IMG/VR virus record: IMGVR_UViG_3300037312_000757
Reading direction: 5' to 3' (one strand)
DNA from: a virus
Lineage: Duplodnaviria; Heunggongvirae; Uroviricota; Caudoviricetes
Length of the DNA stretch: 64,000 bases
This document shows positions 30,343 through 33,523 of the stretch, in pieces. Position 1 is the first letter of the stretch. Each line of letters starts with the position of its first letter. The notes beneath the pieces were generated by a model. That model made no database searches, was not told the origin of the DNA, and saw only the letters and a program-made list of their open reading frames with translations. The translations under genes and the position numbers were made by a program.

Positions 30343-30782
30343 TTCTTACCAGTATGGAATAGCTGGTCCTCGGTGAGGACACGGAAAGTTAAACCGTTTT
30401 TGTGGCACCATGCCATGGCAGCGGCCCACTTGGCCTTGTTCACTGCCAATACTGCTTTATCACGTTTACTCTTGGCGCGATCATCATACGCTTCCTTTGC
30501 TGGCTTGATTTCAACGAGTTCAGCACGTTTGTTGCCGTTCTTATCAGTGAAAACGATCAGCAAATCTGGAATGTAGAATGTCCACTTGCCTGTGAGTGGA
30601 TGCATATATGGGATTGTGATACTTTCACTTGCCCATTGTGAAACATTTGGATGTGCATCCAAAACACGAAATACGGACAATTCCCATGAGGAACGGTACG
30701 CAATCGGATATTTACCGATATACTTACCAGGATTCACAGGTGTGTATTCACCTTGACTATATTTTGTACTCATGTTGATCAA
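30339..30782 (-). CDS. Head completion nuclease (T4 gp4, TnsA-like)
   Basis: YRSSWE, WASESITIPY, YIPD, VEIKP, NKAKWAAA. Confidence 0.9.
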   Translation of the reverse strand: MINMSTKYSQGEYTPVNPGKYIGKYPIAYRSSWELSVFRVLDAHPNVSQWASESITIPYMHPLTGKWTFYIPDLLIVFTDKNGNKRAELVEIKPAKEAYDDRAKSKRDKAVLAVNKAKWAAAMAWCHKNGLTFRVLTEDQLFHTGKK

Positions 30783-32191
30783 CCATAATTTGACGGATCA
30801 TCAAAACCGCCGGTAGGTGTAGACAAAACACCGACTTGAGCACCAACTGGACTTGCCGCATTAATCGCACCGAGCATTGCATTGCTTGGAGCCAAACCGG
30901 AAGAAGTAGTACCAGATGCGACGTTGCTCACTGGGGTTTTGCCAGACAGCGCAGCAGATGTTGCAGCCGCAGCAATGCCTTGAAGAGTTGACGTTGGAGC
31001 ATTTGAACTAACAAACTTACCAAGCACACCTAATGACTGACCGTATGTTGATGCTGGAATCTGGTTTTGACCAATCGTGCTGAGTGATGCCAATGCAGCA
31101 GATGGGTTACGCGAGATACCATTAATCAACTGATTTGAGAAGCTTGCACCAGAGAAGCTGCCATTCATGATACCAGGAATAGCACCAGCAACAGCGCCAC
31201 TCAATGGATTGTTCTGGCCAAATACCGCCGTACCGAATGAACCGAGAATACCCGAACCAATTGTCTTTGCTGCGTTTCCAAGTTGGCCTGTACCACCAGG
31301 CGCAAGGAATGTTGCAGCCAAGCCCAAGAGCGATGAACCCAAGTTGGTTGAAGATGCAAGGCCGGTTGATTTCGCGTAGTCACCAGGAGCGCCATCACCA
31401 GGAATGTAGTTCGGAACTACGAACGGGTCGTAAGCTGGATTCAGCTTCTTCATCCATGAACTCAGGAATGCATTCGATGATATCGATGCAGGCAAGTTCT
31501 GGTTCTGATACTGAATAGCTTCGTATTCGACCGTCATGTCGATACCATGGAAATCTGAGTGTTCACTCTCGAATGCGTCAGGATCAAACGATGAAATCTT
31601 TGGGTTAATCAAATCAAACTGCATGTATTCACCAGCATAGAACTGGTAGCATTCGATTCTGTCAAAGAAGTAAGCCGTCTTGGATAGATCTGAAACTGAG
31701 TCAAAGCCAAGATTAGGAGAAAAACCGAAACCGTTTTCCGTACCCTGGAATTGGGCAGCAGTTACGTCATATGACCAAGCCTGACCTGTACTCTGGCGGA
31801 AGTCACCAAAGTAGAAATTTGTGTATTCATACCACATTTGCTGAACAGCAGCATCAATGGTATCGTAGAACGAGATTTTACAAGGGCTGTACTTGACGCC
31901 TGTTTGAACCAATCGTTTCTTGTTGTACTGATTGAGTTCTTGGATTTGCGGTGTAATCTTTGGACGATCAAACGTTCGCACGGCAAAAGACATTCCGTCA
32001 GCCCATGTTGGACTGCCAGAACCACTTGCGCGGACAAAACGCACCATGAACAGATAACGGGGGCGTGGTGCCCCCGCATAGTTCTGAGCATTTGCGTTGA
32101 ACGCCTGTTGGTTTTGACCAAAGACTGTCGCCGCATCCCCGGACCCGGCGAAAATAACCGGGTTACCGAAATTGTCAGTTCTTGTTGCCAT
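30779..32191 (-). CDS. Tail-tube-fold baseplate/tube initiator (gp48/gp54-like) with Gly/Ala/Ser-rich tail
   Basis: DRPKITP...NQYNKKR...ISFYD tube-like N-domain; next to tube gene. Confidence 0.6.
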   Translation of the reverse strand: MATRTDNFGNPVIFAGSGDAATVFGQNQQAFNANAQNYAGAPRPRYLFMVRFVRASGSGSPTWADGMSFAVRTFDRPKITPQIQELNQYNKKRLVQTGVKYSPCKISFYDTIDAAVQQMWYEYTNFYFGDFRQSTGQAWSYDVTAAQFQGTENGFGFSPNLGFDSVSDLSKTAYFFDRIECYQFYAGEYMQFDLINPKISSFDPDAFESEHSDFHGIDMTVEYEAIQYQNQNLPASISSNAFLSSWMKKLNPAYDPFVVPNYIPGDGAPGDYAKSTGLASSTNLGSSLLGLAATFLAPGGTGQLGNAAKTIGSGILGSFGTAVFGQNNPLSGAVAGAIPGIMNGSFSGASFSNQLINGISRNPSAALASLSTIGQNQIPASTYGQSLGVLGKFVSSNAPTSTLQGIAAAATSAALSGKTPVSNVASGTTSSGLAPSNAMLGAINAASPVGAQVGVLSTPTGGFDDPSNYG

Positions 32192-32195
32192 TCAA

Positions 32196-32783
32196 TTAAC
32201 CAAGCATTGAGCCGGTCAGCAATTGAACTGTTGTTGGCATCAAGCCACCGCTCTGTGTTGCGTTGTCGTAACGGACAGTCATTGTGATTGTCATGAATTC
32301 TGAGCTTGAGTACTCGAACTCGTCGTATTCGACGTCAGCCAAGAAGCAGCCTTCCAGGTACCATTGTTCCAGAACAGTGTCATCACCACCGTCCAGAGTT
32401 TCAATGTACATGTTGAACTTGTAGTTGATACCAGCCAATGCACTTGTTTGATCGAAGTGGTTCAGCTGTTTCTGAACTTGGTAACCAACCAGTGTTGAAA
32501 CTGAGTTAGTAACGTCGTCACGAACCTTCAGACTGAGCGTTTCGAACTGGCCCTTGCCAGGGTAGTACATTGTTGAGTTGTATGAGTGTACAGCTACTGG
32601 TTCGTGTGAAATCTTTGGGCGCCCAACAGAAACGACCTGTTGTGACAGCTCTGTACCACCTTGCAGTGGACCAAAGTTAATTACACGGACACGGAACTTG
32701 TACTTTGCCTTTGGTTGCAGAATACCACCACGGCCAGCACCGCTACCAAGTGGCACACCAAAGCGTGAAAGTGTAGAAGACAT
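32196..32783 (-). CDS. Tail tube protein (gp19-like)
   Basis: TATAAATA at 32822-32815, GGAGG RBS, EQWYLEGCF...ITMTVRYD. Confidence 0.88.
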   Translation of the reverse strand: MSSTLSRFGVPLGSGAGRGGILQPKAKYKFRVRVINFGPLQGGTELSQQVVSVGRPKISHEPVAVHSYNSTMYYPGKGQFETLSLKVRDDVTNSVSTLVGYQVQKQLNHFDQTSALAGINYKFNMYIETLDGGDDTVLEQWYLEGCFLADVEYDEFEYSSSEFMTITMTVRYDNATQSGGLMPTTVQLLTGSMLG

Positions 32784-32857
32784 ATCGTCCCTCCAAAGTT
32801 GGATATCCAACTCGTATTTATAGGAGAACGATATAGACGCAGATAATTCAGATGAAA

Positions 32858-33085
32858 GTGCTCATGGTTTCCTCCACTACGTATTGGAGGCGGTTTTCTT
32901 GCCGACCGGACAGGCAAACCATGAACATGTCCTAGTGGCCTATGCGTGTAATCTCACGCGTGCTTTTCTACCCCTCAGAGCTACCCGAGACCTACCATTG
33001 CGCGGACGGCTTCCGCAGCCTAGTCACCAGTAGAAAGCTTTATAGGTTCAGGACATACGTCCTTTGACCACTAGCTTTACAGCTT
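32858..33085 (-). ncRNA. Candidate ~230-nt multi-helix structured RNA
   Basis: TTGATT-N17-TAATAT upstream; about eight helices with G-U pairs favouring the - strand; no credible ORF. Confidence 0.6.
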
Positions 33086-33123
33086 CGTGTATATTAGCGA
33101 TTAGCTAATTGCCAATCAATATT

Positions 33124-33453
33124 TTATTTCAATCTTGTGACTTCCATCGCCACTTCAATTCTGCGTCTAGTGGTAGTAGTCATACGATATGACTTCATAA
33201 CCTCAACTGGCAGGAAATAAAAGGTACGGACCTTTTTCTTGGTACCAATTGGGGGAAATGCATTACGGATTCCACCCTTCATCAGAGTGTGGTAACTGCG
33301 CCAGTATGCTCGAGATTCAGTGTATCCCTTGTTGCGAATGATTCCGCTGAAACGGCGGAAGACTTCAGCATGATCCTCAGCCTCCACCAAATATGTGGTG
33401 GTTGGCAGATCAATGTTGTGAAATCTAACCTTGAAATTTCTTGTAGTTTTCAT
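33124..33453 (-). CDS. Small basic (Arg/Lys-rich) hypothetical protein
   Basis: ORF between sheath terminator and the RNA candidate; start chosen after the terminator. Confidence 0.55.
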   Translation of the reverse strand: MKTTRNFKVRFHNIDLPTTTYLVEAEDHAEVFRRFSGIIRNKGYTESRAYWRSYHTLMKGGIRNAFPPIGTKKKVRTFYFLPVEVMKSYRMTTTTRRRIEVAMEVTRLK

Positions 33454-33465
33454 ACCTGAAATGAT

Positions 33466-33501
33466 AAAAGCTCCGCCAATTATATGCAATTGGCGGAGCT
33501 T
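33466..33501 (-). terminator. Terminator after tail sheath
   Basis: AAGCTCCGCCAATT...AATTGGCGGAGCTT plus T-tract on - strand. Confidence 0.8.
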
Positions 33502-33523
33502 CGTGTTGCTTAAAATTCAGCTA

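What the first reader, a model, noticed from the sequence alone, without database searches (positions are those of the whole stretch)
32858..33119. Unannotated ~230-nt structured RNA with its own promoter between tail sheath and tail tube
Seen on the minus strand: TTGATT-N17-TAATAT (33119-33091), then AGCU-GUAA-AGCU. A long-range helix CUAGUGGUC/GGCCACUAG (33074-33066 with 32940-32932) encloses AGGAC/GUCCU, CCUAU/AUAGG, GCUUUCUAC/GUAGAAAAGC, GCGGA/UCCGC, CUCGG/CUGAG and GCGUG/CACGC. A second domain GUUCAUGGUUU/AAACCAUGAGC contains CCUCCA/UGGAGG. Three helices have G-U pairs on the minus strand that would be A-C mismatches on plus. An alternative pairing AUGUCCU/AGGACAU suggests a switch or pseudoknot. 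Sheath and tube are normally adjacent, and the tube has its own late promoter downstream, so this is not simply its leader. I could not match it to tRNA, tmRNA, RNase P, hammerhead or a riboswitch I know.
Basis: partly seen in the sequence, partly recalled or inferred. Interest (0 to 1): 0.78.

Follow-up and report, generated by a model that had tools for sequence, protein, structure and literature searches.

The report
New pseudoknotted RNA gene in jumbo phages
Between the tail sheath and tail tube genes of this 524-kb phage lies a real folded RNA gene of about 155-235 nt; I found it in at least 40 related giant phages, one of them culturable, it matches no described RNA family, and its function is unknown.

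Summary
Window 33086-32929 (minus strand) encodes a ~155-nt core. A clade-specific second domain follows at 32926-32860.

A covariance model built from close relatives found 40 distinct copies. They come from uncultured jumbo-phage contigs with RNA G+C of 31-61% and from the isolated Sinorhizobium phage Phosso. In this alignment 93.4% of cells form standard pairs and 39 of 46 pairs show compensatory double changes. The covariation score is 0.81, against 0.21 when shuffled and about 0.1 when the partners are slid. G-U pairs outnumber A-C by 128 to 9, which fixes the strand. Rfam 15, ARAGORN and a comparison with T4 rnaC/rnaD give no match.

The gene almost always lies between sheath and tube, but its neighbours vary. 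They include small unrelated ORFs, a Ro60 cassette and tRNAs. In three loci (two distinct lineages) the RNA lies on the strand opposite to tube.

Many copies have a sigma70-like promoter, and several have a canonical terminator directly after the core. I read it as an independently transcribed, trans-acting structured RNA of a new family. Its partner or ligand is unknown. A riboswitch-like or ribozyme role is not excluded. In the window itself the 3' end is not defined.

The parts
33467..33502 (-). Palindromic terminator-like hairpin just after the sheath stop codon (sheath gene 36418-33524). It marks the end of the upstream unit.
   Evidence: 16-bp stem followed by a U-rich tail; sheath, phrog_10581
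33124..33453 (-). Orphan 109-aa basic ORF upstream of the RNA. It is present only in the window's own clade and is not part of the conserved RNA unit.
   Evidence: No Pfam or PHROG hit. Only one other protein cluster found. Not homologous to the small ORF at the same place in Phosso. Absent from many RNA-bearing loci.
33091..33119 (-). Sigma70-like promoter candidate TTGATT-N17-TAATAT. The predicted start is about 33084, just before the 5' hairpin.
   Evidence: The hexamers and the 17-nt spacing are kept in L002, L003, L004 and Phosso while the spacer sequence changes. Better matches sit at the same place in other lineages. 19 of 39 upstream windows score >= 9/12, against 9 of 39 controls. The consensus scan did not call it in the window.
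33072..33083 (-). 5' hairpin AGCU-GYAA-AGCU with a GNRA-type loop. It is invariant in the window clade only, and its 3' half overlaps the start of P1.
32929..33086 (-). Conserved core (domain 1).
- P1: 33074-33066 with 32940-32932.
- P2: 33063-33059 with 33054-33050.
- Joining strand GAA-CCUA-UAAA: 33049-33039.
- P3: 33038-33029 with 32972-32962.
- P4: 33017-33012 with 33006-33001.
- A-U and C-G pairs: 33024-33023 with 32995-32994.
- P5: 32990-32985 with 32978-32973.
- P6: 32959-32955 with 32948-32944.
   Evidence: Models R1 and R2 score the window at 169 and 135 bits. 40 distinct homologues give 93.4% standard pairs, 39 of 46 pairs with double changes, and covariation 0.809 against 0.209 shuffled.
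33019..33046 (-). Pseudoknot: CCUA (33046-33043) pairs with UAGG (33022-33019) across the 5' strand of P3. It stacks on the AC/GU pairs to make a 6-bp helix whose complementary strand is discontinuous.
   Evidence: Pair types in 40 sequences are CG:40; CG:39 and UA:1; CG:25, UA:14 and AU:1; AU:39 and CG:1. No cell is unpaired. At least 8 switches of the third pair occur on a tree.
32860..32926 (-). Domain 2: an 11-bp closing stem (32926-32916 with 32870-32860) that holds a small hairpin and CCUCCA/UGGAGG (32890-32885 with 32876-32871). It is specific to the window clade and may be a branched terminator or 3'-end structure.
   Evidence: Compensatory changes among the window, L002, L003 and L004. 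Other lineages have a simple terminator, a tRNA-like fold, a ~270-nt extension or nothing here. In the window it is followed by ACUUUCAUCU, which is not a canonical U-run.
32781..32822 (-). Tube gene leader, which is not part of the RNA: T4-late-type TATAAATA (32822-32815), a 5' hairpin, the Shine-Dalgarno GGAGGG (32794-32789) and the ATG (32783-32781). The tube gene runs 32783-32196.
   Evidence: Almost invariant in the clade alignment. Tube protein matches phrog_4542.

Best explanation
This is a gene for a stable structured non-coding RNA of a family not described before.

Proposed unit (inferred):
- In the window it is transcribed on the minus strand from its own sigma70-like promoter, starting near 33084.
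- It folds into a compact core of about 155 nt. A closing helix (P1) encloses a hairpin (P2), a three-way junction (P3, P4, P5) and a hairpin (P6).
- The core is locked by a 4-bp pseudoknot between the strand that follows P2 and the junction strand.
- The junction strands GAACCYAUAA, GGYGACURGG and UAAAGGUA vary little, while the helices change freely by compensation.
- This pattern suggests a specific three-dimensional pocket or protein-binding face.

What is shown: the fold, the strand, the conservation, the single copy per genome, and the variable neighbours.

What is inferred:
- The RNA acts in trans as the RNA part of a ribonucleoprotein or as a decoy, rather than as a leader of the tube mRNA.
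- Its role may lie in RNA or tRNA metabolism or quality control, because its relatives sit beside a Ro60 cassette and among tRNA genes. This is my weakest step. I give it about 0.25 on its own.

The window's phage has no Ro60 gene, so the RNA must work without a phage Ro60 there.
For: Structure:
- 40 distinct sequences give 93.4% standard pairs and compensatory changes in 39 of 46 pairs. Covariation is 0.809 against 0.209 in 500 shuffles (none as high) and 0.09-0.13 with slid partners.
- The pseudoknot is compensated at 3 of its 4 pairs and switched at least 8 times on a tree.
- GU/UG outnumber AC/CA by 128 to 9.

Autonomy:
- Sigma70-like hexamers with a 17-nt spacing lie just upstream in many lineages, for example TTGACA-N17-TATATT in L095 and TTGACA-N17-TAATAT in L107.
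- Four lineages have a late-type ATAAATA or CTAAATA motif there instead.
- A terminator of the upstream gene often precedes the promoter.
- Canonical terminators lie 5-60 nt after the core in L094, L104, L105, L116, L117, L150, L099 and L109.
- In L130 and L134/L135 the RNA is on the strand opposite to tube.
- In L100 the core sits between two tRNAs in a tRNA array.
- In L093 an 82-nt tRNA-like fold follows the core.
- The next gene downstream differs between lineages: tube, the orf396-orf397-Ro60 cassette, or others.
- The genomes of the window and of Phosso, and the partial record behind L002, each hold one copy.

Not a known family: no Rfam match.
Against: - No transcript data exist for any member.
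- In the window clade no canonical terminator lies between the RNA and the tube gene. Transcription from the candidate promoter could therefore run into tube, which would make the RNA a long leader of an early transcript.
- The window's promoter is a weak consensus match (8 of 12) and was not called.
- Promoter enrichment over the control is moderate (19 against 9 of 39).
- The layout of promoter, P1-closed fold and terminator is also the layout of a transcriptional riboswitch.
- The near-invariance of two core motifs is partly due to how members were found. 24 members were found with a pattern that required those motifs. The 11 members found through the tube protein do show variation in them.
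- No partner protein is identified.
- Ro60 occurs without the RNA (L149; Atu_ph07), and the RNA occurs without Ro60.
Confidence: 0.55

Rival explanations
1. It is a cis-acting riboswitch or attenuator. The core would be an aptamer for a metabolite or signalling nucleotide, and the structure after it would be an expression platform that decides whether transcription from the upstream promoter continues into the downstream genes (tube in the window, the Ro60 cassette in others).
For: - The fold is closed by P1 and has a pseudoknotted junction with little-varying joining strands.
- In eight lineages a strong terminator follows the core within 5-60 nt.
- In L118 and L119, P1 is followed directly by a U-run.
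- The RNA is nearly always co-oriented with the next genes. The RNA keeps its orientation relative to the genes after it in the inverted cassette of L134.
Against: - The downstream genes are not of one functional kind.
- In the window the tube gene has its own conserved late promoter after the RNA.
- I found no conserved alternative pairing between the core and the terminators.
- What follows the core ranges from nothing to about 270 nt.
- One copy lies inside a tRNA array.
Confidence: 0.2
2. It is a non-canonical Y RNA, the RNA partner of the phage Ro60 (TROVE) protein. It would have been kept in the window's lineage after the Ro60 gene was lost, or it would be used with a host Rsr protein.
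For: - In Phosso, L103, L108, L110, L111, L112, L114, L156, L157, L190 and L200 the RNA lies upstream of Ro60, and in all but L200 also upstream of orf397, on the same strand and within about 1-2 kb.
- Known bacterial Y RNAs are likewise encoded beside rsr and can be co-transcribed with it (PMC4201824).
- Rfam finds no canonical YrlA near these phage Ro60 genes.
- In the Ro60-type lineages aligned the RNA carries a shared 3' extension of about 270 nt.
Against: - The window genome has no TROVE gene.
- Most RNA-bearing lineages lack Ro60.
- Ro60 occurs without the RNA in L149 and Atu_ph07.
- The core has no conserved GNCGAA(N)G or GGUCCGA motif and no T- or D-arm, and at about 155 nt it exceeds the 80-130 nt of Y RNAs (PMC4201824).
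Confidence: 0.12
3. It is a self-cleaving or otherwise catalytic RNA, or a processing signal, that separates the sheath and tube transcripts.
For: - The core is pseudoknotted with little-varying junction nucleotides.
- It lies between two highly expressed structural genes.
- tRNAs or a tRNA-like fold flank it in L100 and L093, which would make RNase P or RNase Z cuts at its ends.
Against: - There is no resemblance to any ribozyme in Rfam.
- It has its own promoter and terminator in many lineages.
- Nothing in the sequence marks a cleavage site.
Confidence: 0.08
4. It is not an RNA gene. The pattern would come from a DNA-level element, a small protein-coding gene or chance.
For: Small ORFs overlap the region on both strands.
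Against: - Substitutions are compensatory in stems, and indels of 1-2 nt occur in loops.
- G-U tolerance is one-sided.
- No overlapping ORF is shared between lineages.
- The mini-ORF has a different start codon, length and peptide in L002 and L004, and L003 has no ATG there.
Confidence: 0.01

Closest known systems
Bacterial and phage Y RNAs (YrlA/YrlB, Yrn1), partners of Ro60/Rsr
   Same: Both are small stable structured RNAs that phages can encode. In about a quarter of the lineages this RNA lies upstream of a Ro60 gene on the same strand. Both have a modular build, here a conserved module plus variable modules.
   Different: There is no Ro60 in the window genome. The RNA lacks the Ro-binding motif and the tRNA-like T and D arms. 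It is larger, has a pseudoknotted three-way junction, and gives no Rfam match.
Orphan structured RNAs of bacteria and phages (for example raiA, ROOL, GOLLD, HEARO) and the stable RNAs rnaC/rnaD of phage T4
   Same: These are conserved, ornate, independently transcribed RNAs of unknown or recently found function. They sometimes lie beside tRNA genes, and covariation is the main evidence for them.
   Different: There is no sequence or structure match to any of them. This RNA is much smaller than ROOL or GOLLD. Its fixed position between sheath and tube is peculiar to it.
Transcriptional riboswitches with pseudoknotted junction aptamers (for example THF-I, SAM-I)
   Same: The fold is closed by P1, has a multi-helix junction tied by a pseudoknot and conserved joining strands, and is often followed by an intrinsic terminator.
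   Different: No consistent regulated gene, no conserved anti-terminator pairing and no ligand is known. It occurs in a tRNA array and, in some lineages, on the strand opposite to tube.

Membership tests
Any Rfam 15 family | Covariance-model match at or near the gathering score | tested here: not met
   No match at gathering score in the whole window. No match at E <= 10 over the RNA in the window. No match over the RNA in 11 homologous loci.
Y RNA / YrlA | Encoded beside a Ro60 (TROVE) gene | tested here: not met
   There is no TROVE gene in the 524-kb genome of the window. The feature is met only in a minority of homologous loci.
Y RNA / YrlA | 5' motif GNCGAA(N)G or GGUCCGA in the stem formed by the two ends (PMC4201824) | tested here: not met
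   The strand after P1 is (N)RAGG and varies. The motif is seen in L002 only (alignment).
Y RNA / YrlA | tRNA-like T and D arms; length 80-130 nt | tested here: not met
   ARAGORN finds nothing over the core. There is no tRNA or YrlA-type match in Rfam. The core is about 155 nt.
tRNA / tmRNA | Cloverleaf or tRNA-like domain with a tag reading frame | tested here: not met
   ARAGORN finds 0 genes in the window. tRNAs flank the core in L100 but do not form it.
Group I intron | Interrupts a gene; P3-P7 core; Rfam RF00028 match | tested here: not met
   The RNA lies between complete genes. There is no Rfam match. I noted no group I (P3-P7) arrangement among the supported helices (my reading).
Phage T4 stable RNAs rnaC / rnaD | Homology to the T4 species 1 and 2 RNAs | tested here: not met
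   R1 run without filters on T4 68.0-76.0 kb gives a best score of 10.6 bits, and that hit is not at rnaC or rnaD.
Riboswitch (generic) | Conserved aptamer fold closed by P1 | tested here: met
Riboswitch (generic) | Consistent association with downstream genes of one pathway | tested here: not met
   The next gene is tube, orf395/396/397-Ro60, a tRNA or something else. In L130 and L134 the RNA is on the strand opposite to tube.
Riboswitch (generic) | Expression platform with mutually exclusive pairings | tested here: inconclusive
   Terminators follow the core in eight lineages. I found no conserved anti-terminator by inspection, but I did not make a formal search.
Riboswitch (generic) | Specific ligand binding | not testable with these tools
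   This needs in-line probing or ITC.
Independent sRNA gene | Own promoter and own terminator | tested here: inconclusive
   Both are clear in several lineages. In the window the promoter is a weak match and there is no canonical terminator.

The most novel reading that the evidence does not exclude
The ~155-nt core is a new ligand-sensing or catalytic RNA class of giant phages. One possibility is an aptamer for a nucleotide signal that times tail-gene or RNA-repair gene expression. Another is a new ribozyme. The evidence also allows a new RNA partner that recruits a conserved host protein.
Probability: 0.25. Interest if true: 0.9.

Novelty: categorically new. Interest (0 to 1): 0.78.

Why it matters
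- New RNA folds that are backed by strong covariation and match nothing in Rfam are uncommon.
- This one has persisted across contigs whose RNA G+C ranges from 31% to 61%, so it is probably important to the phage.
- It is present in a culturable phage, Sinorhizobium phage Phosso, which infects S. meliloti. Its expression, partners and knock-out phenotype can therefore be tested directly.
- In some lineages it sits beside Ro60 cassettes and tRNA genes. This hints at a role in RNA quality control or in countering host nucleases, an area where giant phages are poorly understood.

Tried and rejected
Searches that found nothing:
- Rfam at gathering score and at E <= 10 gave nothing over the RNA.
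- A DNA search of the phage collection with the window region gave no match. With the Phosso RNA it found only Phosso.
- The first pattern, AGCTGYAAAGCTA...CCTGAACC, found only the window's own clade in viral contigs and metagenomes. The other hits were chance matches rejected by the model.
- A pattern scan of bacterial and archaeal genomes gave 4 stretches, none confirmed at E <= 0.01. The best was L121 at 16.9 bits, E 0.03.
- The model found no copy in Atu_ph07, PA5oct, two large contigs related to Rak2-like phages or the Ro60-bearing contig of L011.
- The supplement of the IMG/VR candidate-RNA survey (PMC10690425) is not held. I could not check whether this motif is among its 8,495 unnamed candidates.

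Readings rejected:
- Homology to T4 rnaC/rnaD.
- An obligate pairing with the upstream 109-aa ORF. That ORF is confined to one clade, is unrelated to the small ORF in Phosso, and is absent where sheath is followed directly by the RNA.
It is not conserved.
- A trans-pairing target for the conserved strand. The window holds no excess of complementary sites.
- A resemblance to 5S rRNA (CCUGA-CCCAU, AUGGUAG). The topology differs and Rfam gives no match.

Full report
**Setting.** The window is part of a 523,836-bp virus record with direct terminal repeats. The genes around the finding run on the minus strand:
- A 964-aa tail sheath (36418-33524, phrog_10581).
- A palindromic terminator-like hairpin (33502-33467).
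- An orphan 109-aa ORF (33453-33124).
- The candidate RNA.
- A T4-late-type TATAAATA (32822-32815).
- The tail tube gene (32783-32196, phrog_4542).
- A second tube-like gene and a gp4-like head completion gene.

The closest isolated relatives by tube protein are Sinorhizobium phage Phosso (64% identity), Agrobacterium phage Atu_ph07 (56%) and PA5oct (54%).

**The observation.** The minus strand folds at -83 kcal/mol with z = -3.0, and none of 200 shuffles folds as well. The plus strand gives z = -1.6. Rfam 15 has no match at gathering score in the window and none at E <= 10 over the region. ARAGORN finds no tRNA or tmRNA.

**Homologues, found in four steps.**
1. The tube protein brought in three close lineages (L002, L003, L004) with the same small ORF and a spacer of about 340 nt. 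Their alignment already shows compensatory changes in nearly every helix: 29 of 65 predicted pairs.
2. A covariance model of domain 1 (R1) found one copy in the window's genome and one in the 290-kb partial record behind L002. It also found a full-length match in the isolated phage Phosso at PV764938.1 288267-288419 (49 bits).
3. The strands shared with Phosso gave the pattern CCTGAACCYATAA-N10-20-GACTRGG. That pattern hit 34 viral contigs, some up to 561 kb long. R1 confirmed 28 of them over the full model length.
4. To escape the bias of a pattern search, I fetched 80 loci of this phage group with a tube-protein alignment and searched 77 of them with a second model (R2).
   - 22 hold the RNA.
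   - 11 of these are new lineages that depart from the search pattern.

The final alignment has 40 distinct sequences with RNA G+C from 31% to 61%.

**Structure.** On these 40 sequences, 93.4% of cells form standard pairs. 39 of 46 pairs show changes on both sides. The covariation score is 0.809, against 0.209 in 500 shuffles (none reaches it) and 0.09-0.13 when the partners are slid by 1-3 columns.
- The alignment was fitted to the model, which favours the model's helices. The slid controls and the number of pair types per position still leave no doubt.
- G-U pairs outnumber A-C by 128 to 9, so the RNA is read from the window's minus strand.
- The core is P1 (a closing helix that varies in sequence), P2 (AGG...CCU), a joining strand GAA-CCYA-UAA, P3 (10 bp) closing a three-way junction with P4 and P5, then P6 with an invariant G-C closing pair, then the 3' strand of P1.

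**The pseudoknot.** Relatives do not keep that pairing. CCYA instead pairs with URGG in the junction strand GACURGG.
- Pair types in 40 sequences are CG:40; CG:39 and UA:1; CG:25, UA:14 and AU:1; AU:39 and CG:1. No cell is unpaired.
- The third pair switched at least 8 times on a tree built without those columns.
- This pairing crosses P3, so it is a pseudoknot. It stacks on the neighbouring AC/GU pairs.

**Domain 2.** The second domain (32926-32860) covaries within the window's clade but is not part of the family. Other lineages have in its place:
- A simple intrinsic terminator.
- A long closing stem.
- An 82-nt fold that ARAGORN calls tRNA-like (L093).
- A shared structured extension of about 270 nt.
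- Nothing, with a U-run directly after P1.

**Context.** Wherever the flanks are long enough, the RNA lies after the sheath gene and before the tube gene, with two exceptions: L100, where it sits in a tRNA array, and L119. What else lies in that interval varies.
- In some lineages there is nothing else (L105, L093, L118).
- Unrelated small ORFs occur in others. The window's 109-aa ORF and the Phosso ORF are not homologous.
- L106 has a tRNA between sheath and RNA.
- Phosso, L103, L108, L110-L112, L114, L156, L157 and L190 carry an orf396-orf397-Ro60 cassette, whole or in part, and L200 has Ro60. These lie between the RNA and tube.
- In L130 and L134/L135 the RNA is on the opposite strand to tube, within a block of opposite-strand genes in L134.
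- The window genome has no TROVE gene.
- Ro60 occurs without the RNA in L149 and Atu_ph07.
- About half of the sheath-tube intervals in this phage group lack the RNA. In more distant relatives sheath and tube are directly adjacent.

**Transcription signals.**
- The window's TTGATT-N17-TAATAT is a weak consensus match and the scan did not call it. The hexamers and the 17-nt spacing are kept in its clade and in Phosso while the spacer changes.
- Several lineages have near-consensus promoters at the same place.
- 19 of 39 upstream windows score at least 9 of 12, against 9 of 39 reverse-complement controls.
- Four related lineages have a late-type ATAAATA or CTAAATA motif instead.
- Canonical terminators follow the core within 5-60 nt in eight lineages.
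- In the window clade no canonical terminator separates the RNA from tube. L002 alone has a good U-run after domain 2. The 3' end in the window is therefore not established.

**Reading.**
- The fold, its strand and its conservation are shown.
- The RNA has dedicated promoters and terminators in many lineages, variable neighbours, and either orientation relative to tube. One copy lies among tRNAs, and the window and Phosso genomes each hold a single copy. From these I infer an autonomous RNA gene whose product acts in trans. I give this 0.55.
- The little-varying junction strands around a pseudoknot suggest a defined pocket or protein-binding face.
- Its recurring place beside Ro60 cassettes and tRNA genes points, weakly, to RNA quality control or tRNA-related functions.
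- It fails every defining feature of Y RNAs that I could test (PMC4201824).
- A riboswitch-like role (0.2), a true Ro60 partner (0.12) and a catalytic or processing role (0.08) remain open.

**Novelty.** It matches no Rfam family and neither T4 stable RNA. A 2023 survey predicted 8,495 unnamed candidate RNAs of at most 151 nt from IMG/VR (PMC10690425). Its files are not held, so I cannot exclude that part of this motif is listed there. Earlier notes of this scan flagged the same stretch in this genome, but none reported it on other DNA.

Noticed in passing
L092:5420-5760 (Phosso) and the same place in L110, L095, L108, L103, L111, L112, L102: In lineages that carry orf397 and/or Ro60, the core is followed by a shared structured extension of about 270 nt. 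It has conserved blocks such as GGUGUUAAGUAG and GAUCGAA, and a terminator only at its far end. The whole RNA there may be about 430 nt. The extension may be the part linked to Ro60.
   Followed up: partly
L100:3373-3635: On a 5-kb contig the RNA core, without clear P1 and P2, sits exactly between two tRNA genes inside an array of at least six tRNAs. It overlaps the next tRNA by 2 nt.
   Followed up: partly
L093:5460-5541 (minus strand): Directly 3' of the core, ARAGORN calls an 82-nt tRNA-Gln-like fold. It has a 7-bp acceptor-like stem and a UUG anticodon loop. It could direct RNase P processing.
   Followed up: no
window 33097-33113 and the same spacer in L002, L003, L004: The 17-nt spacer between the -35 and -10 hexamers holds a small dyad that differs in each lineage: ATTAG/CTAAT, ATTG/CAAT, TTGGCA/TGCCAA and CAACC/GGTTG. 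It could be an operator, or a hairpin at the 3' end of the small ORF's mRNA.
   Followed up: no
window 33124-33453 (minus strand): An orphan basic 109-aa protein with no Pfam or PHROG match. Only one other protein cluster was found among 5.8 billion clusters, and homologues occur only in the window's own clade. The listed TTG start at 33489 lies inside the sheath terminator hairpin, so the ATG at 33453 is the likelier start.
   Followed up: partly
L010-L013:1290-3000; L026:1853-2504 (Atu_ph07): Ro60 genes lie directly upstream of tube in phages without this RNA. They are followed by 0.65-1.7 kb with no convincing ORF and no Rfam YrlA match. These are candidate sites for other, undescribed Y-like RNAs.
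   Followed up: no
L027:793-2409 (PA5oct): A Hef-like homing endonuclease gene occupies the sheath-tube interval. This interval is a hot spot for accessory insertions across the group.
   Followed up: no
window 30779-32191 (minus strand): A second tube-like protein of 470 aa (phrog_13438, phrog_4542) with a long Gly/Ser/Ala-rich C-terminal tail directly follows the tube gene. It is conserved in all relatives.
   Followed up: no
L002 and L004 have GTG starts with different lengths and peptides, and L003 has no ATG there.
   Followed up: yes
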